From: Eledone cirrhosa
Lineage: Eukaryota
Reading direction: 5' to 3'
Length of the DNA stretch: 64,000 nt
Assembly (NCBI GenBank): GCA_964016885.1
Contig: OZ024741.1
Coordinates: 281,976,001-282,040,000 of the forward strand
Numbering within the stretch: position 1 is the first letter of the stretch; every line of letters begins with the position of its first letter. This document shows positions 3,430 through 64,000 of the stretch, one piece after another. A program made the translations under genes and the position numbers. The notes beneath the pieces are model-generated. The model did no database searches, was not told the DNA's origin, and worked only from the letters and a program-made list of their open reading frames with translations.

Positions 3430-4933
3430 TGTGGGTATGGTGCCATCGAGATACGCACCGACTCGGCTACTGTACTCGGATGATCAGTGCTCACCAGTGA
3501 GAAGAGAGTGCGAACGAGAGGGGCGGCGGAGATGCTGATAAAGCGCCGCCTGGGAACTTTAGGAGAGCTGGCCACCGAGTTCGACCTGAGGCTAAGCGTA
3601 GTTTTCGTGCCCTCAGAGAAAAATAGGGCGGACGTCTTAACCAGGGTAAAGAAGGCCTGGATGGAAGCGCCGGAGGAGGTAGAAGATGAGATAGCTGCCG
3701 TGTGTCGGCTGACCGAGTCGGATCTGAAAGGGTTTCATGACATGCACCACATGGGAGTGGATAGGACCCTGTTCCTAGCCAGGAGAATCGACTCGGACGT
3801 TAACAAGCACAGTGTTCAAAGGGTGGTTAGAGGCTGCGTCCGATGTCAGTCCATTGATCCCGCTCCGGGTGTGCACAAAACGGGAAGCCTCCCGGTGGAT
3901 CGCGACTGGAAGCGATTGGTGGTGGATTTAATGCACTACCGACAGGGAACGTACCTCTTGATGGTCGACTGTGGACCAGGACGGATGGCGCTATGGAGGG
4001 AGATGAAGACTGGAACGGCCGAGGAAATCATGCGGACGTTGAGAGAGGTGTTCTTGGAGCGGGGCCCTGTGGACGAACTGCTGATGGACAACAGCGCAGC
4101 GTTCCGCTCGGAGGCGCTGAGGGTGATGCTCGATGGATGGAAGGTGGACCGTTTCTTCAGAGCAGCGCACAGGCCGAGCGGAAATGGAATTGTGGAGCGA
4201 CACCACCGGACAATCAAGGCAATGGCGGAGCGGGGCCATATCTCACCAATGGAGGCAGTGTTCTGGTACAACATGTCCCCTCGGGTGGGACAGGTCGAGG
4301 AATCGGTGCCACACAGAGCAGTATTCAGATACGAGTGGCGGCACCCGTGCACGCCACCACAACGGCCAGTGGGGAGAGAGAATGCATTCGTGCAGGTGGG
4401 CGAAGAAGTCTGGGTTAAGCCCCCAGATGCACGTTGCACATCTCAATTGTGAAGGGGAACGGCGACGGCCGTAAATTCCCAGAACAATGTGTCCGTGGAC
4501 GGAGTACCACATCATGTCCTGGATGTCTGTAGAATCACTGTGTCAATGGACTCCGAGGAAGAGGAAACTCAAAGTGCCGCCCCAACACTGCGGAGTTCGC
4601 AAAGAAGTCGCAAACCACCAACCTGGACTTTCATATGCAGAAGGACGAGGGCGGAATTGATCCTTGAGATCAGGGGGCGTGTGGGTATGGTGTGGTGTGC
4701 GGTGGCCGGAAGCTGGGGAGTGCTCGACTGGAAGAGTGCTTGGCCGGAAGGGTGCTCGACCGGAAGGGCCAGCAGATTGGTCTCTCTCTAGTGGTGACCA
4801 GGAACGGTGTGGGCACGAGCTTGGCAGCTCCCGGGTGTTAATGAGTTGGACGCACGTGGAAGAGGAGAAACCAGCCTTGGGATTTAGCGGCGCCTATGAA
4901 AAGTGGTAAGTGAGATAGCTTTTTCTAACCACA
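3430..4933 (+). mobile_element. Internally deleted Ty3/Gypsy LTR retrotransposon (3' LTR 4680-4933; 5' LTR reduced to 13 bp)
   Basis: TG...CA ends; 5-bp TSD TAGGA at 3425-3429 and 4934-4938; purine-rich PPT before 4680; TGTGGGTATGGTG at both 3430 and 4680. Confidence 0.9.
3487..4452 (+). pseudogene. Gypsy pol remnant: RNase H C-terminus plus integrase
   Basis: NRADVLTR, HHCC zinc finger (FHDMHHMG..CVRC), DDE core (VVDL, LLMDNS, GNGIVER). Confidence 0.9.
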
Positions 4934-5204: not shown

Positions 5205-5330
5205 AGTAGTAACACAACAGTTAGTTCACCATACCGAGAACAATTGTTTTACCTGGTGAACTAATTGTTGTGTTACTACTTCTACCAAACTCATCCCATG
5301 GACTACGGATATTACCTTCCAGTGTTCTAC

Positions 5331-5363
<33 letters not shown>

Positions 5364-11945: not shown

Positions 11946-14165
11946 ATGACAGATGACGGAGACATTGTTATGCTAGGGGACTTCAATGGTCATGTTGGAC
12001 AGTTCCAGGATGGATACACTGGGGTACATTGTGGGCACGGTTATGAAGGAGTGAGACTTCTTGAATTTTGTGATGCAAGTGCACTAACTATTTGCAACAC
12101 TAACTTCAAGAAACCTACCAACCACCTAAAAATCAGGCGAGCACATAAGCCAGATTGACTTCTTGCTAGTTAGAGAGTCATATGACATAGACGATAACTG
12201 GAATTTCTTACGTGACAACTTACTGCAGGCTACTGAAGAAACTTGTGGCTGGAGCAGAGTTCCAACTAGACAGAGAGTGACCTGGTGGTGGAACAGCACG
12301 GTAGATAGGGACATTAGAGACAAAAGACTTGCATGGAATGCTTGGAAAAATGGTGGGAGTAGAGAAGGATACACAGCTGCTAAGAGAGAAGCTAGACATC
12401 AGGTGTACTTAGCATGCAGGGAGGCTGAGAGTAGGAGGTTTGTAAATGTTCTGCGATGGGAAGATCAGAGACATGAGGTGTTCCGCATTGCAAGGCAGTG
12501 TGTCAGTGCAAATCAGGATGTTGTTGGAGATAAATGTCTCTGAAATGATGCCGGTGTACTTAGTGTCAAAAATGATCAGAAAAAGGAGGCCTGGAAATGT
12601 CATTATGCGAGACTGATGAATGTGGAGAACAAATGGGAGAGAAAGAAATTACCCCTAGTAGACCTGACAGAGGGACCAGCTATTGAGATTGACGAATACA
12701 GGGTCCAAGAGGCAATTAAGGAAATGAAAAATGGTAAGGCCGCTGGACCGTCGGGGATAGTTGCTGAGATGCTGAAGGCATCAGGAAAAGTAGGAACTAA
12801 ACTGGTTGCACGCATCATCAATCAAGCTATATATGGTGGTGTCATACCCAAAGACTGGTGAAGCAGTATTCTCATAAATTGCTACAAAGGTAAAGGGGAT
12901 GCTCTGGAGAGGAGCAATTATAGGGGCATAAAGCTGATGGATCAGGATATGAAAGTGGCAGAAAGAATATTAGCACAACTAATTAGAGAAAAGGTCAAAT
13001 TAGATGAGATGCAGTTTGGTTTTGTGCCTGGGAAAAGTACAACAGATGCCCTCTTCTTAGTGAGACAACTACAAGAGAGGTTCTTAGAGAAGAATAAGCC
13101 ACTATACTTAGCTTTTGTTGACCTAGAGAAGGTCTTTGATAGGGTACCCCAATCTGTCATCTGGTGGTCCCTAAGGAAGCTAGGTGTAGAGGAATGGCTT
13201 GTGAGGACAGTGCAAGCTCTATACAGAGGTGCTGTCAGTAAAGTGAGAGTAGGAATGGAGTTTAGTGAGGAATTCCAGATACAAGTAGGAGTACATCAGA
13301 ATTCGGTCCTCAGCCTGCTCTTGTTCATTATAGTTCTCCAAACCATAACAGAGGATTTTAAGACTGGCTGCCCATGGGAACTTCCCTATGCTGATGATCT
13401 GGTTCTTATAGCAGAATCAGTAGAGGAGCTAGAGAAGAAATTCTGGCTATGGAAACAGCAGTTGGAATCAAGAGATCTGAGAGTGATAATAGCTAAGACA
13501 AAAGTGTTGATAAGTAGAAGAGAGGACAAAACTCTGATTCCATCAGGGAAATGGCCATGTTCGATATGTAGAAAAGGAACTGGCATAAATTTTATAAAAT
13601 GTACACAATGCAGATCTTGGGTGCACAAGAGATGTAGTGGGATAGCAGGCAAACTAACAGGTAGGGAAAACTACGTATGCAGTAGATGTACAGGGAAAGT
13701 TGACAGTAGTAATTGCAGTGATAGACACATCTTTCAAATGCAGGTGGTTTCTATAGAAGTGGTTGATAGCTTCCGGTACCTAGGTGATCAGATTAGCATG
13801 GGAGTGGGGTGTTCCGAGGTCATAGTATCTAGAATAAGGATGGGTTGGAAGAAGTTTAGGGAGCTGCTTCCTCTGCTGACGAAGAAGGGTTTCTCCCTGC
13901 TTATGAAAGGCTGGTTATATGATGCCTGTGTGAGATGCGCAATGCTGCATGGTAGTGAGACATGGGCAGCAACTGCAGAGGATATGCAACGGCTGGAGAG
14001 AAATGAAGCAAGCATGCTCCGTTGGATGTGCAGTGTAAATGTGAGTGAATGACCAAGCATAGATGAGTTGAGAGAGTGGAGAGACGCTGTGCAGAATAGG
14101 ACCCATCCCACCCTTACAAGCAGGGAAAAGCAGACGTAAAATGATGATGATGATGATTATCATCA
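11946..14165 (+). mobile_element. Degenerate RTE-clade LINE ORF (APE + RT + PHD-like finger)
   Basis: GDFNGHVG, KAAGPSGI, QFGFVPGKSTTDA, FVDLEKVFDRV, YADD, MLHGSETW; in-frame stops and deletions; (GAT)n tail. Confidence 0.92.
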
Positions 14166-22759: not shown

Positions 22760-25700
22760 CTGGAATACAGAAATGATTATAAAATTATTCTAAGCAAATA
22801 AGATAGCAAATATAAAATGTTTCAATAAATTGCAAATTTATGATAAACAGAAATATGATGATGAAAAAGAAAGAAAAGGAATCACTGGCACAGATCAGAC
22901 CAAGGAAATTATGTTAACATTGGTCTTTTCATTGCTGATAGTATTTGCTGTCAATACAATATTGACAGAAATAGAACTGTCACAATTCTGGTAGAAGTGT
23001 CATAGTGTCACAATATTGGTAGAAGTGTCATAATACTGGCAGAAGTGTCACTGTGCTACAATACTGGAAGAAGTGTCACTGTGTCACAATACTGGCAGAA
23101 GTGTCACTGTGTCACAATAATAGCAGATGTGTTACTGTGTCACTGCTATATATTTGTGTTGCTTTGTACCAATGTGAGTGAATCTGTTTCTATTATATAT
23201 ATTTTTTATCTGACTGATTTTGTTATCGATAAAAGAAATCAAACTGGATTTGACTTTGTAATCATTAATATAAAGTTTTGACTTCTTCCGCTTAGTAGTC
23301 TCTTGGAATCCATATCTTGGATACTCAACCCTTTTTTTTACCTAACTGCTTGAAAATGCCCTTGTTCTCTGATACTAATCTGTTTAAACTGTTTATCATC
23401 ATTACTGTTAAACATTTTTTTCCCCATCATTGCATGGGTTAGACAAGTAGTCAAGTTATGAGGTTAGACAGGTCTTCTATGCTGGATGCCCTTCCTAATG
23501 TTCACTGCCTGGACTGGGTGCTTTTTGTTGTCACAAGCACAAATACCTTACATTATGGACTAGGTGCTATTTTGTTGTTGCACCATCCATCAATAATTTT
23601 ATGTAAGAACCTTTGATAAGTTATGTTCCAAACACCAACTTAATAATGAGAAAATTAGTTATATTACAAAAACCCTCCAAATTTTTTAATTATTTTCAAA
23701 AAGATTTGAAACACATAGGCAGTGTCTTTCCTTAGAAATATGGTAATGGACGGGTTAAACAGTTGATTGAGAACACAAACAAACTAGCGGAAACAGAAGT
23801 AGAGAATTAGTGTTAGCAGTACATATAAAATGGATAATGGTAGATAGTTTAAAATACCTGCTGTGACAAAATTACTTACACTGATGAATCTGTTCAGCAA
23901 GGTGGACAATATGTAATGGATTAGGGAAGAGATTTTCGCAAGATTTCAGATTAGTCAAAAACTGAGCAACTCGGGAACATTTTGCTCGGATGGAACGACT
24001 CGTTCTTAGTAAATACTGTAAATCACATTCTTTAGCAGCGTTAACACACACATTCATTTCATCTTCTAGCCGGTTTACTGTAAAAGAAACCAAAAATTCA
24101 AAACAGCTAGGTATGGATACCTTGTCATTAGAAGCTAGATTCTTATAGAATCTTAGAAGCTAGATTCTTATAGAATTCCGGTTATGTTTACGGGCTGTTT
24201 AAACTCATTAACATACAGAGCACTTGCCGGCCCAGAAAAAATTAGAAATTAGTATTGGTGCTCTGAAATAGCGATGTAGCTGCTATTTCTAGCACACCTA
24301 TAGACCACGATGTGGTCCCCCCTATTTATCTGTTATTTCCAGCACACCTATGGACCACCATTAGGTCCCCCAATTTAGCTGCTATTTCTAGCACATCTAT
24401 GGATCACTATAAGGCTCCCCTTATTTAGCTACTATTTCTAGCACCCCATGAACCACTATTTAGCTGATGTAGCTGCTATTTCTAGCAAACCCATGGAACA
24501 ACATGAGGTTTCCTATTTAGCTGCTATTTCTAGCACACCTATGGACCACTATTAGGTTACCATAATTTAGCTGCAATTTCTAGCACACTTGTTGACAACC
24601 ATGAGGTTCCCCGTACTTAGCTGCTATTTCTAGCACACCTACGGACCACTTTGAGTTTCCTCTTGTTTAGCTCATTTAGCTGCTATTTTAATTTACCTTT
24701 TAATTATTATGTATTTTCCACACTTTTCGTAGACTTTATATTCTTCACTCTAGTGGTTCTCTACCCCTCATAATTGAAAACATACCCCTTTTTATGTTTT
24801 CTTCTCTATATACTGTGTTATGAAGAGCCTGATACTTATTCCTTGAGCTCATTAAATTACAGGGGATTAACGCCAGTCTTTAACTCCGTTTTTTATTTGA
24901 TATTTTGGCTCCTCATTTCTTCATTAGTTGAGCTTTTTAAGTTGAATAGTTATAGGCTGCCATTTCTAGCAATTTCTTGATCCATTCAAGCCACTATCTA
25001 CTGACTGGCGTGCATGTTTTTGTTTCTCTCACCATGTGCATTTTTTTAGTTGACTAAAATCTCTTTAGAAGTGTTGACTGTATCTTCTTTACACCTGTTG
25101 ACGAGCCCTGAGAAGGTATGCTACCAACACTCTTTATGGCGAAACATTCTCTTCTTTGAGATTGTCCAGGTGTTTTATGGCTATAAAGGTGGATTTGTAC
25201 ATTTTAATTTACTTTTTAATTATTATGTATTTTCCACACTTTTTGTAGACTTTATATTCTTCACTCTAGTGGTTCTCTATGCCTCGTAATTGAAAACACA
25301 CCCGTTTTATGTTTTCTTCTTTATATACTGTATTATGAAGAGCCCGGTACTTATTCCTTGAGCTCATTAAATTACAGGGGATTAACACAAGTCATTAACT
25401 CCGTTTTTTTATTTGATATATATATATCTTGCCCAATTGCACCTCTCAAAGGCGATGAAACAGGATCGAGACCTCTGGCGTTACACATTAATACAGAAGA
25501 CCTGACTTCCCATGGGTACAAGCTGAAGCTGAAGCATACAGACAGCATGCCCCCACTCCCTCCCATTGTAAAGTGGTCGTGTAGGTGTCATGACAAAAAG
25601 CACCCAGTACTTAATGTAAATGAGGTTGGTGTTAGGAAGGGCATCCAGCTGTAGAAATCAAACCAAAATCAGTTCTGTATGAGCAAGACATGGTCACCTG

Positions 25701-28700
25701 ACCTGGCATTGCCCACAACAGGACAACTCGTCTAACCCATGCTAACGTGGAAGAATGGACGTAAAACGGTGATGATATATATATATATATATATACATAG
25801 AGAGAGTTTTTTTTACTAATTTCATGGATAATCTCAGTTTATCAAAGTTTTTCAACTCACAATGTTACATATGTGGGACATTAGTTAAGAATTATTTACA
25901 CATGTTTACGTTAAAAAAAAAAAAAAAAAAATCAATCAAACTTACAAGACATTGTCACGAAAATATCAGGATCAACCATTGTGTCTAATAAAAATACAAG
26001 ATGAGTCAATTGCCTCCTCCATTCTTTTGTAAGATTTTTCAATCTGGAGATCATAGATTCAGACAAAGCTTGAAATGAGTTAGCTGAAATCTTTTGAATA
26101 TATAGACTGATCAAAGAAGAAATTTCTGGATCAAGACATTCCAAGTTTCTGAGGGTCATTTCAAACTGCTGCACAACTAGAATTAAGAAGATGAAATAAA
26201 TATGGTTTTTTGTATTTGTTTTACAAGATTTTTTTTTTTAATGTGAATTTTTATGTTGAAACATATATTGTATTTTGGCTTCATCATGCTGCCAATCAAA
26301 GCACACACACACAGGTAATTAATATATTAATCAGTTGATTAATCAACTAACGAACACACACGAAGAGCCATGGTTTTATGATACATACCTGCTCATTTTA
26401 AAATCATCATCATCATCATTTCATTTTACGTCCGCTTTTTTTCCTTGCTTGCAAGGGTGGGACGGGAACTGATTCTGGCTTGATTTCTACAGCTGGATGC
26501 CCTTCCTAACACCAACCTCATTTACAGTGAGTGCTGGGTGCTTTTTTGCCATGGCACCTACATGTCCACTTTACAGTGGAATGATATGGACCCCAGTCCC
26601 TATCATCTCATTTCTACAGCTGAGTAAACTGGAGCAATGTGAAATAAAGTGTCTTGCTCAAGGAAATAACACATCGTCCGGTCTGAGAATTGAACTTACA
26701 ACCTTTCGATTGCAAGGCCAATGCTCTAACCACTAAGCCATGTGCCTCCATAGTCATGAAAAATATTCCCATTACACTCTGTACTGTGTCTTTCATTAGA
26801 AATATATGAAAAATATATGTGTCTTTCATTAGAAAAATATTCGTACTTATATCAAATTAAAACTTTCATCGTAATGTTCTTTAAGATATTTTTGTTAAGT
26901 AATGTTTCAAACATCAGTTTACTAATGTAAAGTTTAATTATTTCATTAACTTATGTAAAATTTCAAAATTAATTGATACACACAGGCAATGTATTTCAGT
27001 AGATATACAGTAACAAAGGGGTTAATTAATTGTCATACATTAGAAATACAGTAACAAAAAGGTTTATTAATTGTCAAAATCTTTTGCCAAAATCTGTGAC
27101 CTTATCAATGACTGTTGCCCTCTCTGCTTCCTTTTTGTCCATATTTATTTCATCTTTATCTCTGTTTTCTTTTGTGTTAATTGATAGCATTTTCTCACTA
27201 TATTTATACAAAACATAATGGAACTAGGTCTCTCTCTCCCTCTCACTTGTTATTTTGTAGATTTTGAGATTGTTAGGATTTAGTGAGGAGAAATTGGGAA
27301 CCCAAGCAGGGACAAGCATAATTTGATGCATCTAATGCAATAATGATGATGATAATGACAATGGTTATGGTAGTGGTGTTGATGGTGATGATGTTGATTA
27401 TGGTGACAATGATGATGATGAATGAAGTAAGAAGATATAAAAGATATGCTTTCTCTAAAGTATTTTCTATATTCAAGTATAGCAATCAACAGTCTGAATC
27501 TTATATATTTCAAAACGGTTTAAGGAATCAGTTGACTAAAATTAACTTCATCATGATGCTCATCACAGCTAATATTCACAACTAACTAGTAGTAATGGCG
27601 TCATGATAAAAAACACCCAGTCCACTCAGTAACGTGGTCATGCTGATGTCACAATGACAAACACTCAGTTCACTCTGTAAGGTGTTAGTGCTGGTGAGAC
27701 AATAAAAATCACCCTGTCTACCTTGTAAGATGGTAGTGCTGGCGTCAATAAAAAACACCCAGTCCACTCTGTAAAGTGCTAATGCTGATGTTAATAAAAA
27801 ATCACCCAGTCCACTCTGTAGTAGCACTAGTGTCACAATAAAAACACCCAATCCACTTTGTAAGGTAGTAGTGCTGGTGTTATGATAAAAAAAAACATCC
27901 AGTCTGTAAGATGGTAGTGCTGGTGCCACTATAAAATGAACCAAGACCATTCTGTAAGGTGGTAGTGCTGATGCCACAGTAAAATGCTCTCAGTATATGC
28001 TGTAAGGTGGTAGTGCTGGTAACACAGTAAAATGCTCTCAGTATATGCTGTAAGGTGGTAGTGCTGGTGACACAGTAAAATGCTTTCAGTACATGATGTA
28101 AAGTGGTAGTGCTGGTGACACAGTAAAATGCTCTCAGTCATACTTAAAGTGGTTAGTGTTTTATAGAGTTTTGGAAGAATATTCAGTAACTTACATTTAG
28201 ATCTTCTGGAGCTAGCAATGATAAAATGTGCTACTTCATACATATAGTCTAAATGACTGTAAAAGTAATCTTGTAAGGATTTCAGCTTCTCTTTATAACC
28301 ATTAATCTGTTAGATAATAACAAAAAGCACTAGTTATTTAACAACAACATCAATAACATGATAAATTCAGATTCTTTTATTATTCTACTGGTTGGTTTTA
28401 CCCATAAAATCTGTCCAGCGATTCTTTTCTGAGACAATCTAACCACATGCCAGTAGTATCAAAGCTGTAATCTCTCAATTCAGAGAAGTAGTGGCTGGAG
28501 TGACTCTCTGATCTCTGAGTTATACACTCTATCAAGTAACATTACTCCAAAGACCCTTCAGAGGAACCTCATTTCAGCTGCTTGTATTCATGATCATATT
28601 CTTTCGGTCATTACCCAAGATTCATGACTATAGGTAAAGGTTGGCATGATGTAAAAGCCAAATTTGCTATCTTCGTTTGAAGATAGCAAATTTGGCTTTT

Positions 28701-31239
28701 ACATCTACATTCTTCTGAATACTGAAGCTGGCACACTATTGCACTAGCTCCTGAAATTCTTGGTTTACCACATCTGGAAATAAAATTGGTTCAACTAGTT
28801 GTAGAAAATAAAAATCATAGGCTTACTATATCTGGAAATAAAATTGGTTCCACTAATCGCTCTAATGGTTCTGAAGTCTCAGCGAAGACATTGACCATAA
28901 GGTGAAGAATTTCTTGGTTTACTTTATCCTCCAGTTGATAGAGCAAATCAATTGCTTTGTCACAGTCTTCATCATAATTATTACACAGCCTATTATAGTT
29001 GTCTCTAGAAAAAAAAGGAATATATATTTGAAAATGTAGTCTGAAAATATAGTTGTCCTAATGCAGATAACTATAATAATAGCTTATCTCTATAAATAAC
29101 AGTTGAAAAAAACTTATATGAGAGCTGTATGGTTGAATTACCCACTGCAAGCATCTCTGTCCACCTTTTTCTGTCCCCAGGAGTACTTTACTAGATCTTT
29201 TCAACTATTATTTATAGTCATCAAGCTCTATTATACCTCCTTGCATTGGGAGACCTAAATTTTCAAAATTTCCAACAAGATGAATATATATACCGCAATC
29301 TAATGTTCATTTTTCCACACTAGCATGGGCTAGATGAGTTGTCCCGTTATGAGAAAAGTCAAATCAGATGACTGAGTCTTGTTCATACAAAACTATTTCT
29401 GGCTTGGTTTTTATGGCTGGATGCCTTTCCTAATGCCAACCACATTTACAGTGTGGATTAGGTGCTTTTTGTCATGTCACCAATACAGGTTTACAGTGAT
29501 GTACTGGGCGCTTTTTGTTGTGGCACCAACACAATCAATCTACAGTGTGGACTGGGCACATTTTGTCGTGGTACCAAGACGACCACTTTACAGTGTGGGC
29601 TGGGTGCTTTTTGTCATGTCATCATCACGGACAGTTTACAGGGTGAACTGGCCGATTATTATTGTGTCTCCAACATGACCACTTTACAGGGCGTATTGTG
29701 TCGCTAACATGACCACTCTACAGGGTGGACCAGGCGCTTTTGTCATGTCCCCAATGTGATCACCTTACAGGGCTGACCGGGTGTTTTTTATCGTATCACC
29801 AAGCCAACCATTCCACAGGGTGGACTGGATATCTTCTGTCATGCCACCAAATGACCACTTTACAGGGTGGACTGGGTGCATCCTGTTGTGTCACCAACAT
29901 GACCCCCTTACAGGGTGGACTGGGTACTTATGTCATGTCACCAACACAACCCTGCTGCAGAGTGGCCTAGGTGCTTGTTTGTTATGTTACCTTACAGGGG
30001 TGGAGGACTAGGTGCTCTTTTCTCATGGCATAAACACGAGCACCTTACATGATGGAATAGGGGTTTGTGTTATGTTACCAGCATGACTACCCTACAGAAT
30101 GGACTGAGGGCTTTTAGCTATTTCACCAACATTGTGGGAGTGTGTGTTCAGCTTTCCATGCTTGTATACATGGGTTGGTCAAGCGGAGTGAACCAGATGT
30201 GGAAAGTTGAGGTGGGGTGGAGGGGGTGTGTGCATGTAGGGTGGAGACTGGAGAGGTAAGTCTAGGGTGGGGTACTTAGCTGGTTTCACCAGTATTAAAC
30301 CATGTATATATATACATTTTATATACGTATATTTATACTTTTATTCTTTTACTGGCTTCAATCATTAAACTTCAACCATGTAGGAGCACCCCCTTTAAAT
30401 GAATGTATATATATGTGTGTGTGTGTGTGTGAAATATGGTAGATAGTGTTCCAGTATGATTTAATGAATTAAAGAATATGTGTGTTTATGTATATGAGAG
30501 GGTCTCAAAGAACTTTAAGCAAAACTCTTCTTTTCCCCTCTTCAAACTAAATAATGGTTTCTAATTTAGGCACAGAGCCAACACATTTGGTGGGAGAAGT
30601 AAGTTGATTAAATTGACTTGTACTTTATTTTATTGACCTCAGAAGGATGAAAGGCAAAGTTGACCTTAATTATGTACAAAAACAGGCATTTTAAGGCCAT
30701 CTCTGTTAAAGCAGGAGTTAACCTTGTGGGCTCCATGATAAATTTCTCCAGATCATTTGGATCCCCTCTCCATCATCTCCAGTCATGTTTTTCTTGGCTG
30801 TCCTCTTCCTTTTCTTCTTTCCATGTTCGTTCCCCTTACCTCATCTAGTCACTTTAAATCTTCCTCAACACATGACCCAACCATCTCATTCCATTTCTCT
30901 TTACAACATTCATTACTGGTTCTATTCCCCTCACCCAGTCACTTTAAACCTTCCTCAACACATGACCTAACCATCTCATTTCATTTCTCCTCACAACATT
31001 CATCACTGGCTCTATAACCATAATACTCTGTAATTCATTATTTGTCTTCCTCTTTCTCATTCCTTTCTGACTTATTTACTAGACCATTCTCATTTCTATT
31101 CTTTTCGGCTTTCTCTGATGTACCTCATTCCTCACCCATACCTCACACCCATAAGTCATGGAGGTAAATACGTGCATTTGTTTATGTAGATAAGTGTATG
31201 CCTTTATATGTAGAATGTGTGTGTGTGTGTGTGTGTAAT

Positions 31240-36040: not shown

Positions 36041-36355
36041 GTTTGTTATGAAACAGTGAGGAAGTTTGAAATTAGAAATAGCAGCTTTCACCGTATTTTT
36101 GACTAAAGAAATTTTATCCTGATGGTGGGTTTAGAACCCTCAGAGAAATGGAAAAAGATGAGTATTGATGTACATGGGAGTCGAACCCACATCTGTGGTT
36201 ATCCAGATCACTATGCTACCATTACACCAACACATCATCCATATGGGGGATGTACGTCAATACTCATCTTTTTCCATTTCTTAGAGGGTTTTAACCCCAC
36301 CATTAGGCTAAAATTTCATTCATCAAAAATACAGTGAAAGCTTCTATTTCTAATT

Positions 36356-36416
<61 letters not shown>

Positions 36417-55247: not shown

Positions 55248-58200
55248 GATTTCATTTATTAGACACAAGGGCTGACATGTAGGGGACAATACAAAGGCAG
55301 GGACAGTGGAGGTTTACAATAAGGTAGAGTAAAAGTGCACAATGGCAAGACTAATTTAACAATGAAGATATAAAAAATATAAAATAAACTATGCATAAAT
55401 ATAACAAAATAAATTCCCCTATGGGGGGGGGGGGGGCCAGGGGTGACTCAGGTACCCCACTAATCCTGAACCACCCTGCGCTTCTAGGGCACCCAGGGAG
55501 AGCACGCCTCTCCTCAAGTTAGCTAGCCTATAGGCGCATGGTCAGAGTAGCCCCATTCACACGGGCCATTCTCGCCATATTCACCCACCTTTTAGCAAAT
55601 GTAGTGGGGGGGGGGGGCAGCACTTCTCTCTCCACCTTCACCTTCCTTTCCAGGTGAAACCTGAAGAAGTTGATGAGGGATTGGCCAAAGAGAAAAGTGT
55701 CTGTCTTCAGTCCTTTCAATCTAGTCCACCATATAAACTCTTTTGCACCTGCCACCAGACAGAGGAAAATTACCTGCTCTTCCTGACCAAAGGAAGGTGG
55801 TGGGTCGATCTTCACTATGGACTCGGCTGATAGCCGGATCCGTTCCACACGTGACAGTAGCTGTTCAACATAAATCCACAAGTCAGTAATGCACAGAGAT
55901 TGGACAAGTGCGTGCAGAACAGTTTCGTCACTCTGTGCGCATCTTGGGCAGGTCCGTCTGACAGCACTTCCGTGCCTGTAGAGTTTATCCCAAACCGGCA
56001 GTGCCCCCTGGTAGTACTGCCAAGCGAGGGATTTCTGCAAATTGTCCATCGTCCCCGGCTCAAAAGTCCTCCGGTACAGACTGGTCAGTTCGACTTCGTC
56101 GAGGCCCAAAGCTTCTCCGAGTGTGTCATCGCACTTGCCCACCACTAATCCTCTATAGAACTCGAGAGTCGAAGTTCCACTGATCGTATTGCCCGCTTGG
56201 TAGAGGGCAGTGAGTGCCTGGCAACATTCCAGGTGCCAGTCACCCAGTCTCGGTCTCTTCTTGACCCAGGACTGCAGCTCAGACAAAGAAACGAGCTGCG
56301 GAAAGGCCCGTCTGATAAACGGCAACCACACCTGTTCACCATTGAGGCAGAATATCTGGAGATGTCGCAGCCTCAACGCATGTCTGTGCATCATTAGCCA
56401 CAACATGCCCAGCCCTCCGTGTAGAGGGTGCTGGCAGCAGATGGATCGCCTCACTAACGGAACTTGTCCTTTCTACAAGAATTTGAAGAGAAGCCGTACC
56501 AACTTGATTAGGCGCAGACGGGGGCAAGGCACGACGGTCAGGCGGTAGTAGATGACGGACACGATGTACGCATTCGCCACCTCTGCGCAACCTTTCAGTG
56601 ATAGCTTCCTCCCAGCCCATTTTTGGGTGAGACTGGCTACTCTGCTCGTTACCTCGTTCCAATTCTTTTCCACCTGGAGGTCTGGTCCGAACCAAACCCC
56701 GAGCAACTTTACCGGTCCGTCCGTCCAGCACCCCACGACGCTGTTGGACGGCATAGGCTTGCCTCTCCAGGTTCCGAGCTGCAAGGTCACCGACTTTTCC
56801 AGGTTAAGTTTGGCTCCTGTCAACCTTTCATATTCCTTCAATAAGGTGCCAACCACCTCAATTTCTGAGGTGTTCGACACCATCACGGTGATGTCGTCCG
56901 CATAAGCTGACACCGCCTTTCCACATCCCGGTTTGAGCGGGATGCCCTGCAACAGCTCCAGCTTCCGCAGTAAAGGCTCGAGAGACAATACATACAGAAG
57001 GGAAGAGAGAGGGAACCCTTGACGGATCGATTGTGGGAGCTGAAATGGTTCCGAGAGGTGGCCATTAACCTTGACCACCGAGTGTGTGCCGCTGTGCATT
57101 GCAACGATCCAGCTTCTGAAGATAGGGCCAAAGCCAGCTGCTTTGAGGACAGCATCCAGATACCGATGGCCGACCCTATCGAATGCTTTCGATTGATCTA
57201 AATTGATCAGTGCCCCACTGAAGCCAGGTTTACACCCTACCCTCTCTATGATGTATCGCATGAGGTGGAGATTGTCGTGTATGGACCTGGCTGGGATTGC
57301 ACAAGTTTGTGCCTCCCCAACAAAATCCTCGACGACAAGCGCCAATCTCTTTGCTAACACCTTGGCCAAAATCTTAAACTCTGTGTTGAGCAGAGTTATG
57401 GGTCTGAAGTTGTCTAATGTATCTGTCTTGTTCTCGTCTTTCCTTATCAACGTCACCACTCCCCTTCTCACAGAACTGGGAATACTCCCATTTTGCTGCC
57501 TGTTGCAGTAGAGTGCTTCAAGGAAATCGGAGAACAAGTCTGGCATATTTACGTAAAGCTCGTAGAGCAGGCCATCCAAACCGGGTGACTTGCGCTGACA
57601 AGGGCGTCCTGAATTTCGGCTGAAGTAATCGGCCTTTCACAGCGCTCAGTGTCGACCGTCGAGATGCGCGGCAAGCCGTCAAGGTAGGGACTGAAATCCG
57701 CTACTCTCCCGAACAACTGAGTAAAGTGCTGGCGAAAGGCCTCACACATCCGCTTGGAATCGCTTATCTCGTGTCCGTCTCGGTCCGCCAAAGACCGAAT
57801 TGTGGTTATATTACCATGCTGCGCCTCCGCCACGTGGGCCCATCGAACAGCTTTGGTTTCCAGCGCACCTGCCTTAGCTCTAACAATGCAACCTTTGTGT
57901 TTCGCATTGAAGAAATGGTCTAATGCCATTCTCGCCGCTAGCACGTCAGCTGCAATACCGCTACAAATAGCCTCATCTAACTTATCTACCAGCACCCTCT
58001 CCTTTCTATTTTTCTCTAACGCTAGTTCTTTGCTGAACTCTATCAAAGTTACTCTAATCTCTCTTTTGAGAGTCCATCTGTTGTTGATGATCCCCCTGTC
58101 AACTTTTGCTTAACTAAATTGTTGACTCAGTCCCTGTAAGCTTTATGTGCCGGAAATGACATGTTCAGCTTCCAGTAACCCGGTCCCAACCTATCTAGGT

Positions 58201-61073
58201 CGACTAAACAGATCACAAATTTGTGATCTGAATAGGCGACCGTTTTAAAAATTGGGCAGCCTACACTATTTCTATCTATTTTCCTAATGAAGATCCTGTC
58301 TATATACGATTTAGATGACCCTATGTGGTTGGTCCACGTCCACACTGGCGTATTGGGGAAATCTAGTCGATACCTGTCAGACAGTTGGAACTGGCTGATT
58401 AGGTGTTTGAGGCTTTTGCACCCCTGGCTCCTATCAGCTACTCCCACACAATCCCAGCGTGCGTCTAAGATGCCATTCCAGTCCTCCGCTAACAGTAGAG
58501 GGCGAGACGTACCCAGAAAGGTTTCCAGGTGCCTAAAGAAGTCCGGTCCATTAGACGGCCAACAGTCTAAAGGCACCACCTTCGCTACTGCTCACATCCA
58601 GGACCACCAACTTACCGTCCGGGTCCTGGAAGATCGACCTTACCTCGAGATCGAGACCTTTCCTAAACAGCACTGCCACGCCGGCCTGCTAACAGATGCG
58701 AAGATCTGAGCGCGAGTCGGAAATCCTGATCTCGCTGACGGCAATCACATCCATTTCCAGAGACCTGAGGTCGTTGAGCAGGTGACCCTGCTTCCAGGGT
58801 GACGCCAGGCCACGAACATTTAAACTTCCTACTCTTAATATGGTTATGTTGGCAAGCTAAAAGAGAGAGGGAAGGTTTACTTACCTCCCGGGGTCTTGTG
58901 AAGGTCGGGTGGTTCGACCTCCATGGTTGGTGGGGTTTCTTTTGGGAACCCCTTTAAAAGTCTTGATGTGGGTTTCACGTTCGGGGTTCCCATGTCTTGA
59001 GGAAAGCTCTCTCGAATTTCTTTGTAGGAATCGAACGACATTCGCACCAGAAGCAAATCTTCTGGCACGCAAAATGTGTTCAATTCAAAGATCTCCCCCT
59101 CTGTTTGGATGTCCTCGCTTCGTGCTAAGAGGGCTATCAATTTATCGTTGGCCCTTCTGATAAGCACAAAGTTTTTAATGTTTTGTTGGTGTGGTTTTAT
59201 TTGTTTTTGTTTTGGTGACTGCGGTGGTGATGGTTTTGGTGGTGTTGTTTCGGGTATGTCTGTGTTTGTTGTAAGTGTGGTGTCTGCAATTTCAGGTGTC
59301 TGTGTGTTTATTTGTTCTTGTGTTTGTTTAGGTTGTTTGCATTTCGGGGATTGTGGGGGTGGTGTTCATGTTGATATTGGTGTTGATGTTATTGGGGAAG
59401 TGTTTGCGTTAGTGGTGTCTGTATTTTTTGTTGTGTATATTTTTGTGTTTTGTTGGGGCTTTTTTTTGGTGAGTTTTCTCTTTTGTTTTTTGGCACTTTT
59501 GGGTTTTCCTTCATCTTCACTGCTGGAAGACAAAGGGTCTGTGGCTGTGAGTGTATCTGTGTCTGTGTGCATTTATTGTTTTGTCTATGTGTATAATTGG
59601 AGGGGTATGGGTAGTGGAGGGGTCTTTCCTCGTTTTCCCCTTGGATTGGTTTTGGTGCTGGTGGTGGTCCGACTGTTTTTGATGTTGGTGGGGTTACCCG
59701 TGTCATTGCTGGTGTTGTTTTTGGTGGTGGTGGTGCAGCTTTCCGTGCTGACACTGGTGTTGGCAACAAAGGAGTTTGCGACCCCCTGCATTTTTGAGCT
59801 GAGGGCAAAAGGCTTGCAGAAGCGTTGCTTCCCCGCAGACGAAGCAGTGTGGCCTTCTTCCCTCAGTGATTAATTGGATTGTTGTCCCGTCCTGCAGGCG
59901 GGCAAACTCCGGTATGTTGTTGATGTCCTCTGGTTTCATTTTGAGAAAAATCTCCAAATCCATTCCAGACCAGTCTTCTCTCTCTGTCCTTTTGATATCC
60001 AGGAGGGTAGTGTCTGTCCCCTCCTCGATTACGCATCCCAGGAGCCACCATATGTTCATTCCTGGTGGGATCCTGGGAATGCGGACCTTTACTGTCCTTT
60101 TGGACAGGTGCATGATAAAACATTCCATTCTGCAGGGGGTCACCGAGTGCTTAATAGCAAGGGCCTCGGTTTTGAACAGTACTGAGATGGTACTGAACTG
60201 CTTGGCCCTTGCTTTATACTCGATGTCACTTCCGATGCACTTCAAAGCAGCCTCGACCTCTGCTTGGCTGGCAAGTTCCACTTTGTGTGTCTGCACTGAA
60301 ATGTATCGAAAGTACACCGTCCTCCTTTGCATGGCCGCTATTTCCCCGTCCGGGATGGTCAGGTTTGCCCAGGACTTTTCCCGTTTAATTAACCTCCACG
60401 CCTGGGCCAACTGTTGTTCCTTATCGTTAATATCAACATTCAATAAGCGCTTTGTTTTCGCTGCTGCCGCTGCAAAGGTGGTGCCTCTGTTGCTCTTGTT
60501 GTTGGTGTTGTCGCTCTTGCTGTTGTTGTTGGTATTGTTGTTGTTTTGTTTGTTGTTGCTGTTGCCACCGCCATCAATGTTTACATTGAGGCTGTTAGTG
60601 TTATTGTCGTTGTTGTTCTGAGTTGTGGTGGTGGTGGTGATGTCGTTTTGAGATGGTACTGCTACTATCACAGAAGGGAGCGGTTGTGATGGTAATTTTT
60701 GTGTTTTGCCTTCACATTCAGTGGAATAGTCGACAGGCATGTCCGTAGTAGTTGTAGTAGTAGTAGTTGTGGTGAGATCCATAGTAGCTGTTTTTGAACT
60801 TTTGACCTGTACGTTGTTTACCGTTTCAAGGTTGAAAATTTCCATATTTTTTTTTGGTGGGGAAGCGATTTTTTTCGAAGTTATTAAAAATAGATCTGAA
60901 TATTCAGGCTTAAAGCCCAAATATTGAGAGCTCTCTCTTCCTTGGAACCAAGGTGGGTACCTTATGCTTCATTAACGACAAGAAAATACAAAAAAATGAT
61001 ACTGTAAAACAGCCTAAAGTTACGAACCTTTTCCCCCGCAGACTTGTACGTGTTCATACATGTGCGTCCAGAC
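55248..61073 (-). mobile_element. Near full-length Tx1-clade (L1-like) non-LTR retrotransposon, frameshifted
   Basis: ORF1 from 60920 with degenerate zinc knuckle CFVCGEATLLQAFC; ORF2 APE (SLNVRGL, YIDRIF, YSDH), RT (FRPITLLNTEFKI, LDQSKAFDRV, YADD) and C-terminal CPRC..ETVLHAL; (AAT)n at both ends. Confidence 0.92.
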
Positions 61074-61279
61074 TAATAATAATAATAATTGTTTCTTCTT
61101 TTGGCACAAGGCCAGCAATTATCCCAGTGTATTACTGGTACTTTATGTTATCGACCCCATAAGGATGAAAAGCAAAGTTAATCACAGCGGGATTTGAACT
61201 CAGACCATAAAGGGCCGTAACTCTTTGCTGCAAATCATGGCGTCCGACCGTCTACCGATACTGCCAATCCACCACCCAC

Positions 61280-61310
<31 letters not shown>

Positions 61311-61514
61311 TGTTTCTACTTTTGAATTATCCAGTGCATAACTGGTACTTTATTTTATCGACCTCGTAAGGATGAAAGACAAAGTTAACGTCGGCGGGAT
61401 TTGAACTCAGAATGGCAAGGGCCGTAACTCTATGCGTCAAAGCATGGCATCAGAGCCTCTACCAATACTGCCAATCCACCACCCTAATAATAATAATAAT
61501 AATGATAATAATAA

Positions 61515-64000
61515 TGCTTTCTTTATTAACCACAAGGGTTGATACAAAGTATAACATTTAGGACAACACAGGACAATACAAATGGACATTTCTGCGCGTA
61601 AAAAACCCCAAAAAAACAGAGTGTGACAAAAGGAAACAATGAAAAATTCTCAATAGGGGGGAGACCTCCGAGGGTTGCTCGTGGAGAAAGCCTACAAGAA
61701 AAGCCACGGATACCCTGACCGCTAGAGCAAATTCCCTCTTCCAGTTTTCCGGAGCAATCTTCACGATGGACTCAGCTGATAGCCGGATCCATTCTACACG
61801 TGACAGCAGGTGTTCGGCATAAACCCACAAATCAGCAATGCTTGGACACTGGACGAGTGCATGCAGGATGGTTTCACCGCCCTGCATGCATCTCGGACAG
61901 GCTTGGATGACGGCACTTCCATGCCTGTAGAGTTTATCCCCAACTGGCAAGGCTCCCTGATAGCACTGCCAGGCCAGGGATTTCTGGAAGTTGACCATGG
62001 ACCCGGCCCGAAAGTTCTCCCGAAGAGATTGGCTAGTTGGTTTTCGTCAATGCCTAGAGTCTCCCCAAGGACGTCATTGCTCTTTCCTTCCACTAATCCG
62101 CTATAGAAAACCAAGGTGGAGTTTCCAGCGATTGTACTGCTCGACTGGTCAAGGGCTGCAAGCGCCTGAAGACATTCTAGTCTCCAAGCCCTTTCTCTCG
62201 GTCTTCACTTGACCCAGGACTGCAGCTCCATCAAGGAGACAAGCTGGGAAAACATGTGTCTAGCAAAGGGCGACCACTCCTGATCACCATCGAGGAAGAG
62301 GTGGAGATGCCGTAGCCTGAACGCATGTCTGCGCATCACCAGCCACGACATGCCTTGTCCTCCAAGTAGCGGGTGTTGACAGCAGAGGACCGCCTGACCA
62401 TCGGAGCACATCCCTTCCACAAAAAGAAAAAGAGCAAACGCTCCAGTGCGGTTAGGCGAGGCTTAGGACAAGGCACGACGGTCAGGCAGTAGTAGATGAC
62501 AGATGCGATGTACGCATTCGGCACCTCCGCTCGACCTTTCAGGGATAGCTTCCTCTCGGCCTATTTCTGAGTGAGAGAAAACACCTTGGTCGTGACCTCC
62601 TTCCAATTTTTGTCCGTCTGGAGGTCCGGACCGAACCAGACCCCTAGCAATTTAACCGGTCCGTTCGTCCAGCGCCTGATGACGCTGTTAGAAGGCATGG
62701 ACCTGCCTCTTCAGGTGCCGAGTTGCAGGCCTACTGATTTTTCCTGGTTGATCATTGCTCCTGTCACTACTTTGTATTCTCTTAGTGTGGGGCTGATCGC
62801 CTCAATGTGTTTAGTGTTCGAGACCACTACGGTGATGTCATCTGCATAAGCTGACACTGTTCTTCCGCATCCTAGTTCACGTGGGATCCCCCTCAACATC
62901 TCCAGTTTGTGCAGTAATGGCTCGAGAGTCAATACATACAACAAGGATGACAGAGGACATTCTTGGCAGATTGAGCGCATGATGTTGAACGGTTCCGAAA
63001 GGTGACCGTTCACTCTCACCACAGAGCAGATGTCGCTGTGCATGGCAGCAATCTAGCCTCTGAAGACAGAGCCGTGGCAGTCCGTCGAGGTAGGCACTGA
63101 AGTCCATTCCGCCATTGCCCCAGAATAGCTGAGCAAAGTGCTGCTGAAAAGTCGCACACATCTGCCCGGGATCATTCTGCTGCCAGTTGCAGTAGACGTC
63201 TGCCAAGAGGTCTTCGAACAAGTCTGGCATATGTATGTAAAATTCGTAGGGCAGACCATCCAACCAGGCGATTTATCCATTGTGCAGCTAGTCATTGCCT
63301 CCTGTACTTCAGCAGCTGTTATCGGCCTTTCACAACACTCCACCTCAGTGGCCGAGAGCCGCGGAAGTCCGTCGAGGTAGGCACTGAAGTCCATTCTGCG
63401 ATGCGGCCCGCCACTGCCCCCAAATAGCTGAACAAAGTGCTGCTGAAAAGCCACACACATCTGCCCGAGATTGAGTATCATGTGCCCGTCGTGGTTCACC
63501 AAAGACCGGATCGTGGCTTTGTTGCCATGACGCGCCTCCGCCACCCGGGCCCATTGAATTGCTTTTGTCCCCTCGTGTTTGAGTGCATGCACCCTAGCTC
63601 TGACAATGCAGCCTTCGTGCTTAGCGTTGAAAAATTGGTCAAGAGCCAATTTTGCCGCAAGCACGTCTGTCGTGATGCCTTTACTAAGAGCTTCGTCTAA
63701 TTTGTTAACTAGATTTCCTTCTGCTCTACTTTTTTTAGTTACTAGCGCTTTACTAAGCCTAATGGACTCTATTCTAATTGCTCTTTTCAGGGCAAACTAC
63801 TATTTGTTGTTGACGATGAACCCTGTCAACGCCCACTTAACTAATTTGCTAATCCGGTCTCTGTAAGCTTTGCGCGCTGTTAACGACGCATTTATTTTCC
63901 AGTAGCCAGGTCCCTGTCTATGAAGCCTATCTAAGTCAACCACCCAGATCACAAATTTCTGGTCCATGTAGCTGACTATCTTGAATTGTGGACAGCCTAT
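61515..64000 (-). mobile_element. Second Tx1-clade element (sister subfamily), internally deleted and rearranged, runs off the window
   Basis: GPGYWK, PG.DGLPYEFY, YADD, CPRC..ETILHALVQC; 3' end in (AAT)n. Confidence 0.9.

What the first reader, a model, noticed from the sequence alone, without database searches (positions are those of the whole stretch)
25091..25173. Best-formed hammerhead (UUGACGA core, GUC site) inside an intron, antisense to the catenin-like gene
Seen: 7-bp helix I, G-C-closed extended helix II, 8-bp helix III and a canonical GUC triplet. The only core deviation is C3U. It lies between the two ~218-bp direct repeats. Inference: the stable helix III could let it act as a monomer, and the antisense orientation would spare the host pre-mRNA.
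Basis: partly seen in the sequence, partly recalled or inferred. Interest (0 to 1): 0.7.

Follow-up and report, generated by a model that had tools for sequence, protein, structure and literature searches.

The report
Braced hammerhead in Penelope-type repeat
This is a real hammerhead (self-cutting RNA) motif carried by an old copy of a small jumping repeat that landed backwards in a gene's intron, so it is likely a passenger rather than a gene regulator; its family has an unusual core and an extra long predicted helix, kept by matched base changes, that likely braces or gates the cut, which is untested.

Summary
The motif is real: a type I hammerhead at 25091-25173 (+), in an intron of a vinculin/catenin-family gene on the minus strand. 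It is not a locus-specific device. It is the core of a ~516-bp non-coding repeat: 93 hammerhead-bearing copies recovered, most ending at two sites, often at (TA)n, many with 5' inversions (Penelope-like traits; no fused ORF found). The two 219-bp repeats are this element's overlap. U3 is inherited, not decay: source lineages carry U3-A8, U3.G8 (this copy) or C3-C4 cores; only 4 of 93 copies are canonical. It covaries within the family and is rebuilt from other sequence in distant canonical-core families. P starts where helices I and II must be clamped but looks too long to coexist with helix II in one molecule, so 'stable helix III, hence monomer' is unsafe. Copies are 3.5-8.5% decayed; no RNA data; cleavage untested; U3.G8 is expected to be slow. 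Earlier scan notes report similar braced hammerheads in this and other genomes. New variant of a known kind.

The parts
25091..25173 (+). Type I hammerhead motif: helix I 25091-97/25167-73, core 25098-104 (U3.G8), helix II 25105-07/25138-40, GAAA 25141-44, helix III 25144-51/25158-65
   Evidence: sequence; unique vs shuffles; pair counts
25166..25167 (+). Predicted cleavage site after C17 of GUC (untested)
   Evidence: hammerhead consensus; U16/C17 are the majority in all six groups
25070..25089 (+). Helix P, 5' strand (leader directly before helix I)
   Evidence: covariation; analogous helix in distant families
25110..25131 (+). Helix P, 3' strand (inside loop II); this copy has a private change at 25121 that breaks one pair
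24685..25419 (+). One 5'-truncated insertion (about 1.4 units of a ~516-bp unit) of a non-coding Penelope-like repeat
24685..24903 (+). First direct repeat = start of the more-than-unit-length copy
   Evidence: 92.7% to 25201-25419
25201..25419 (+). Second direct repeat; contains both preferred 3' ends of the family (25327-40 and 25416-27), which define an ~85-nt optional tail
   Evidence: 34 of 93 and 31 of 93 copies end at these sites
25420..25427 (.). Short (TA)n tract at the 3' junction (likely target)
   Evidence: 28 of 31 copies ending here run into a TA/CA tract
24078..25945 (-). Host intron (GT-AG, phase-consistent) of a vinculin/catenin-family gene
   Evidence: splice sites read from sequence, no RNA
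25946..26174 (-). Upstream host exon (approximate 5' edge)
   Evidence: tblastn 77% to P0001
23881..24077 (-). Downstream host exon (approximate 3' edge)
   Evidence: 81% to P0001

Best explanation
The motif is a type I hammerhead inside one old, truncated copy of a ~516-bp non-coding repeat that is likely a non-autonomous Penelope-like element (retrozyme-type), sits antisense in a host intron, and likely does nothing for the host gene. Shown: the repeat family, its Penelope-like insertion pattern, lineage-level core variants, and a covarying leader/loop-II helix P. Inferred: a Penelope RT/endonuclease supplied in trans copied unit-and-a-half RNAs into (TA)n sites, starting at two internal sites 3' of the hammerhead. 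Inferred mechanism: in the source elements the part of P next to helices I and II acts as a pseudoknot brace that props up a 3-bp helix II and a sub-optimal core, while full-length P holds the RNA mostly uncut. Cleavage would then be slow or conditional, which lets cDNA run through the site, as most recovered copies do. This copy has drifted since insertion (5 changes in 141 nt, one breaking P).
For: Family: 40 scored matches at 83-100% from 329 candidates; 93 distinct hammerhead-bearing copies. Two preferred 3' ends (34 and 31 of 93), scattered 5' ends, 36 of 93 with 5' inversions, TA targets: the traits listed for PLEs in PMC8557442 and PMC11167929. Hammerhead-essential positions differ at 1 of 33 sites among six group majorities against 33 of 108 others (p = 0.0008); against only non-P, non-core sites (11 of 62) p = 0.052. 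Helix P: 86.1% of cells paired, 49 two-sided changes against 25.5 in shuffles (0 of 500), far above slid controls; cognate strand pairing ranks 2 of 720 among groups. Distant canonical-core families have P from different sequence in 15 of 20 long-loop loci, starting 1-3 nt into loop II in 8 of 9 representatives. Pseudoknots that clamp stems I and II are common and were proposed to offset core variants (PMC3088659). In a Poseidon PLE, cleavage needs protein and is dispensable for insertion in vitro (PMC11167929).
Against: No autonomous partner found: no PLE protein match overlapped the element or was read as fused to it, so the PLE link rests on architecture. RNAalifold returned no consensus structure on the 65 decayed copies. 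Within the family helices I-III show almost no two-sided changes. Shuffle controls ignore relatedness, and two of five measures for P were not above shuffles (88 and 95 of 500). Deep mutagenesis of a type III hammerhead found low activity for all CUGA-region single and double mutants except the G:C swap (PMC9901934), which argues against much activity for U3.G8, C4 or even U3-A8. One lineage (C2) has an A.C mismatch at the core end of helix I. 5' ends do not pile up at the cut site. Five of 20 long-loop loci lack a clear P.
Confidence: 0.6

Rival explanations
1. P is a dimer gate: full P presents helix I 5' strand, core and GCC in a hairpin loop, and the GGC-GAAA-helix III-GUC half of a second unit docks onto it, so only tandem or paired RNAs are cut (swap at helix II rather than at helix III).
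For: P covers nearly all of loop II, leaving about 0-6 nt to return to helix II in 8 of 9 representatives. By A-form geometry (recalled, about 2.8 A per bp) that is too short for ~20 bp in cis. The distal half of P also covaries (pair 25075-25126: U-A 28, C-G 13, U.G 8, G.U 4). P spares every hammerhead-forming strand. Metazoan PLE hammerheads are thought to act as dimers (PMC4209133).
Against: No direct test. Helix I can form in cis and would compete. Fraying of distal P could allow cis cleavage. Recovered copies are mostly 0.5-1.5 units; I noted only one head-to-tail copy with two hammerheads (L076/L030).
Confidence: 0.2
2. The hammerhead is a catalytically dead relic in this family. Selection kept only a structure (P and helix I) needed for RT binding or RNA stability, and the core has been decaying by lineage.
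For: No group majority has a canonical core; low activity of such mutants; cleavage dispensable for PLE insertion in vitro; no 5'-end pile-up at the site.
Against: G5, A6, A9, G12-A15, U16, C17 and helix II are unchanged across all six groups, and positions 3/8 stay paired. U3-A8 and U4C are natural variants with retained function (PMC3088659; PMC4209133).
Confidence: 0.15
3. This copy is a host-co-opted monomeric ribozyme acting on an antisense transcript, like the conserved intronic hammerheads of amniotes (recalled).
For: Core and helices I-III of this copy equal its lineage majority; intronic location.
Against: It is an ordinary family member with neutral-level drift (5 of 141 sites; the two repeats differ by 7.3%) and a private break in P. 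It is the best-looking copy partly because it was chosen as such.
Confidence: 0.05

Closest known systems
Metazoan non-LTR retrozymes / non-autonomous PLE derivatives with type I hammerheads (PMC7229834, passages; bioRxiv 10.64898/2026.07.22.740005, parts 1-2 of 5)
   Same: Non-coding, AT-rich unit with one type I hammerhead; dispersed copies; unit length within the reported 51-972 bp; many retrozyme copies lie in introns (about 43% in Xenopus).
   Different: Mostly 0.5-1.5-unit insertions rather than tandem arrays; long non-palindromic helix III; 30-nt loop II paired with the leader; non-canonical cores; circular RNA not shown.
Hammerheads in pLTRs of EN+ Penelope-like elements (PMC4209133, parts 1-2 of 4; PMC8557442, passages and supplement parts 1, 2, 24; PMC11167929, parts 1-2 of 4)
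   Same: Sense hammerhead upstream of two preferred 3' ends (tail), partial tandem giving direct repeats, 5' inversions, (TA)n targets; U3-A8 core known from Schistosoma PLEs; large helix III known from fungal and protist PLEs.
   Different: No RT/GIY-YIG ORF; tail ~85 nt rather than 30-40; not minimal; no match by motif search or by eye to the published octopus Naiad consensi or Hydra-1_Obim hammerhead.
Pseudoknot-stabilised hammerheads (Perreault et al. 2011, PMC3088659, sections 6-9)
   Same: Base-paired brace between stem I and stem II regions; short stem II; tolerated core variants.
   Different: Reported braces are 4 or more bp (6 in the tested case); here about 20 bp, covering nearly all of loop II, in an animal retroelement.

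Membership tests
Hammerhead ribozyme, type I | Three helices around the core, helix I open | tested here: met
   compensatory helix I in distant families
Hammerhead ribozyme, type I | Core C3 U4 G5 A6 N7 G8 A9, G12 A13 A14, A15.1-U16.1, H17 | tested here: inconclusive
   all met except U3, giving a U3.G8 wobble; sister lineages U3-A8 and C3-C4-G8
Hammerhead ribozyme, type I | Stem I-stem II tertiary contact | tested here: inconclusive
   covarying helix P at the right place; coexistence with helix II in cis not shown
Hammerhead ribozyme, type I | Match to an Rfam hammerhead model | tested here: not met
   no hit at gathering or E<=10
Hammerhead ribozyme, type I | Site-specific self-cleavage | not testable with these tools
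   no assay; 5' ends of copies show no pile-up at the site
Penelope-like element (non-autonomous) | Partial-tandem pLTR-like repeats, 5' inversions, optional 3' tail, microsatellite target | tested here: met
Penelope-like element (non-autonomous) | Terminal sequence shared with an autonomous RT/GIY-YIG element | tested here: inconclusive
   no link in 30 GIY-YIG loci of 150 scored or in the family loci; sampling is small against 10,597 candidates
Autonomous PLE | RT plus GIY-YIG ORF | tested here: not met
   no such ORF in the unit
Non-LTR retrozyme | Tandem units each with a complete hammerhead | tested here: inconclusive
   this copy has one hammerhead; one two-hammerhead head-to-tail copy noted among 93; arrays not searched for
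Non-LTR retrozyme | Expressed as circular RNA | not testable with these tools
   no RNA holder listed

The most novel reading that the evidence does not exclude
A superfamily of cephalopod Penelope-type repeats uses a ~20-bp leader/loop-II helix to make a hammerhead that cannot close helix II within one unit and is completed only by the 3' half of a second unit: a dimer gate built on helix II exchange instead of the known helix III exchange, strong enough to let U3.G8, U3-A8 and C4 cores all propagate.
Probability: 0.2. Interest if true: 0.7.

Novelty: new variant of a known kind. Interest (0 to 1): 0.42.

Why it matters
The single copy is ordinary. The family is a natural mutagenesis series: the same scaffold propagated with U3-A8, U3.G8 and C3-C4 cores, while relatives keep the canonical core and rebuild helix P from unrelated sequence. 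It offers a direct test of two open points: whether a strong brace rescues core variants, and what hammerheads do for Penelope elements (whether and when they cut). It also shows a class that Rfam misses and that descriptors with a short loop 2 or a canonical core would likely miss.

Tried and rejected
Rfam scans: no hammerhead hit. RNAalifold: empty consensus. Pfam on 18 single-exon frames: nothing; homologue search with one exon found none, a second exon found the vinculin-family protein. Autonomous partner: none by BLAST, covariance model or motif scan in 30 GIY-YIG loci. PLE fragments near copies were read as separate insertions. Five short motifs were absent from the Naiad/Hydra supplement (wrapped FASTA lines can hide matches). 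Idea that copies start at the cut site (lead from e1-9585305): 10 of 137 5' ends fall in the 20-nt bin holding the site, bins range 0-10, none exactly at 25167: not supported. Expression: no RNA holder listed; three runs of unrecorded kind from one sample list no other letter at 25098 and no empty allele, possibly the source sample. 'U3 is private decay' rejected. The 4 canonical copies may be CpG decay of the C3-C4 form (inference). Scrambled-order (SGC-type) hammerhead rejected: strand order here is standard type I. Cross-family alignment A2 was out of register in helix III and was not used for pair counts. Lunse 2017 and Przybilski 2007 could not be read, so a measured rate for U3.G8 is missing. 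Literature searches for a prior description listed none on this family or on a 20-bp leader/loop-II helix; the library is partial and bioRxiv supplements were closed.

Full report
Observation. The sequence at 25091-25173 (+) folds on paper as a type I hammerhead: helix I 25091-97/25167-73 (7 bp), core UUGACGA, helix II GCC/GGC, GAAA, helix III and GUC. It is the only hit of my descriptor in the window, against 0.017-0.033 per window in 60 shuffles (descriptor set post hoc). Helix III has 7 pairs and one U.U, not 8 pairs. Rfam does not detect it.

Host gene. One exon matches an Octopus bimaculoides protein at 81%, which is vinculin family (PF01044, E 4e-38). It maps as 12 minus-strand exons from 54856 to 22131. 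The motif lies in a GT-AG intron at 25945-24078 read from the sequence, antisense to the gene. The organism is therefore likely an octopod (inference).

The motif belongs to a repeat. A 151-nt query gave 40 scored matches at 83-100% from 329 candidates; other parts of the unit gave 1,264 and 1,451 candidates (candidates are not copy numbers). The unit is about 516 bp. Of 93 distinct hammerhead-bearing copies, 34 end at 25327-40, 31 at 25416-27 and 28 elsewhere; 5' ends are scattered; 36 carry an inverted 5' piece; 18 of 34 and 28 of 31 run into TA/CA tracts. Partial tandems, inversions, an optional tail and (TA)n targets are the PLE traits in PMC8557442 (passages); the tail reflects two internal RT start sites in PMC11167929 (parts 1-2). 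The genome holds many GIY-YIG elements (150 scored of 10,597 candidates), but I found no ORF fused to this unit. The PLE link is architectural, as for animal retrozymes (bioRxiv 10.64898/2026.07.22.740005, parts 1-2).

Core variants are lineage states. Among 93 copies, positions 3 and 8 are U-A in 33, C-G in 27, U.G in 22, C.A in 5 and other in 6; only 4 have the canonical CUGANGA. This sample is enriched for U3-A8 because I searched with such a copy. A pattern search restricted to G8 gave 11 UU, 15 CC, 2 CU and 1 UC at positions 3-4, control 2. A tree of the 51 copies that cover 25020-25330 separates a U3-A8 clade (23 rows, 100/100), a mostly U3.G8 clade holding the window copy (10 rows, 94/81, weakly nested among C3-C4 copies) and a further branch that proved to be a second group with a U3.G8 majority (G8 in 4 of 7); the root is unknown. 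End branches have a median of 0.061. In six groups that I defined by hand-picked sites (81 copies), copies differ from the group majority by a median of 6.4-8.5%, minimum 3.5%; the window copy differs at 5 of 141 sites, none in the core or helices I-III. Hammerhead-essential sites differ among group majorities at 1 of 33 against 33 of 108 (p = 0.0008), or 11 of 62 when P and the variable core sites are left out (p = 0.052). U3-A8 and U4C are known natural variants (PMC3088659 passages and section 8; PMC4209133). A U3.G8 core is quoted for a saltern variant that also has an insertion (PMC7151607 passage). Against activity: pairwise mutagenesis of a type III hammerhead found all mutants of this region weak except the G:C swap (PMC9901934 passage).

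Helix P. With flanks, nested folding pairs 25070-89 with 25110-31 and drops the hammerhead fold from P = 0.06 to below 0.001; the program cannot draw both at once. On 65 copies (chosen from 74 with a homologous leader, dropping 9 gapped, truncated or duplicate rows) P has 86.1% paired cells, 49 two-sided changes against 25.5 (0 of 500 shuffles) and score 0.208 against 0.172; the two measures that count pairs or types were not above shuffles (88 and 95 of 500). These shuffles ignore kinship. At group level, cognate strands rank 2 of 720 pairings; this copy's P is -17.9 kcal/mol (3 of 5,000 shuffles) against -23.2 for its group. RNAalifold found no consensus. Helices I-III barely vary in the family, so they give little covariation there.

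Distant families. A canonical-core pattern gave 102 hits, control 0. Of the 30 loci fetched, 20 have a loop II of 27 nt or more; 15 of these pair it with the leader at 7 or fewer of 300 shuffles (one is from this family, three are near-identical copies), 5 do not; of 10 short-loop loci 1 does. Fourteen of the 30, apart from the own-family locus, show 67-84% similarity to parts of our unit. Their helix I sequences differ with compensation, and helix III is long. For 8 representatives chosen because they showed P, cognate pairing ranks 1 of 40,320; control flanks give -1 to -12 against -12 to -25 kcal/mol. P begins 1-3 nt after GCC and ends next to helix I in 8 of 9.

How it likely works. Shown: anatomy, family, covariation. 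Inferred: a PLE protein in trans copies RNA from two sites downstream of the hammerhead into (TA)n. Most recovered copies run through the cut site (partly because they were sought by it), so their template was uncut, religated or circular. The proximal part of P sits where stems I and II are clamped in fast hammerheads, as for the pseudoknots of PMC3088659 (sections 6-7). Full P leaves about 0-6 nt to return to helix II, which A-form geometry (recalled) makes strained or impossible in cis. I therefore favour a two-state RNA, braced and slowly active or locked (0.6 with the passenger reading), over a strict dimer gate (0.2), a dead relic (0.15) or host co-option (0.05). In a Poseidon PLE the hammerhead needs protein and is dispensable for insertion in vitro, which fits slow or conditional cleavage. 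5' ends of 137 alignments show no pile-up at the site. No RNA holder was listed.

Earlier notes. The scan has reported leader/loop-II braces in PLE hammerheads of other genomes and in 500-560-bp repeats of this genome, and scrambled hammerheads in Naiad-type repeats here. I had found P before reading them (note). They led me to check the Naiad supplement (no match) and the cut-site idea (not supported).

Verdict. A real hammerhead motif and an ordinary decayed insertion. The family-level features (non-canonical cores in every lineage, a ~20-bp covarying helix shared with canonical relatives) make it a new variant of a known kind. Interest 0.42.

Noticed in passing
window 5205-5335; L030 2270-2640, L079 1190-1400, L091 1795-2200: Another (TA)n-targeting repeat family. 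In L091 and L079 it carries a minimal hammerhead on the opposite strand, and in L030/L091 what reads as a PLE endonuclease end; the window copy is a short inverted remnant without the core.
   Followed up: partly
window 25189-25248 (+): Possible small intron inside the element just 3' of the hammerhead: a GT donor-like site is the majority in all six groups, followed by a pyrimidine tract and AG. PLEs are known to keep 5' introns. Acceptor conservation not checked.
   Followed up: partly
window 24277-24672: 50-bp minisatellite (8 copies) abuts the element's 5' end; its unit resembles an 18-nt stretch inside the element near 24957-24975.
   Followed up: no
L188, L194-L198, L201, L206 (about 1500): Abundant family of minimal canonical-core hammerheads with an 11-nt loop; at C1:441.86 and 442.05 Mb the core is repeated head-to-tail at 48-nt spacing.
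   Followed up: no
L193, L200, L208 (about 1500): Long-loop canonical-core hammerhead family without a leader/loop-II helix; L200 is a partial tandem.
   Followed up: no
PMC8557442 supplement, File S2: By eye, the 5' flank of the Selaginella PLE-X1_sMoe hammerhead is complementary over about 7 nt to its long loop 2; not computed.
   Followed up: no
window 36166-36236 (-): tRNA-like Rfam hit (46.3 bits) lying between inverted-repeat arms 36069-36175 and 36250-36356.
   Followed up: no
window 3484-4452 (+); 12130-14052 (+); 55528-63796 (-): Integrase-like frame (read by eye) and several broken LINE-type RT frames lie outside or within the host gene.
   Followed up: no
window 28735-28880: The 3' part of the host exon at 28821-29015 appears locally duplicated just downstream (near-identical stretches about 60 nt apart).
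   Followed up: no
L009/L069 and L010/L070 (C9:15.26 and 14.85 Mb): Two copies with an identical 106-nt hammerhead region, likely a segmental duplication.
   Followed up: no
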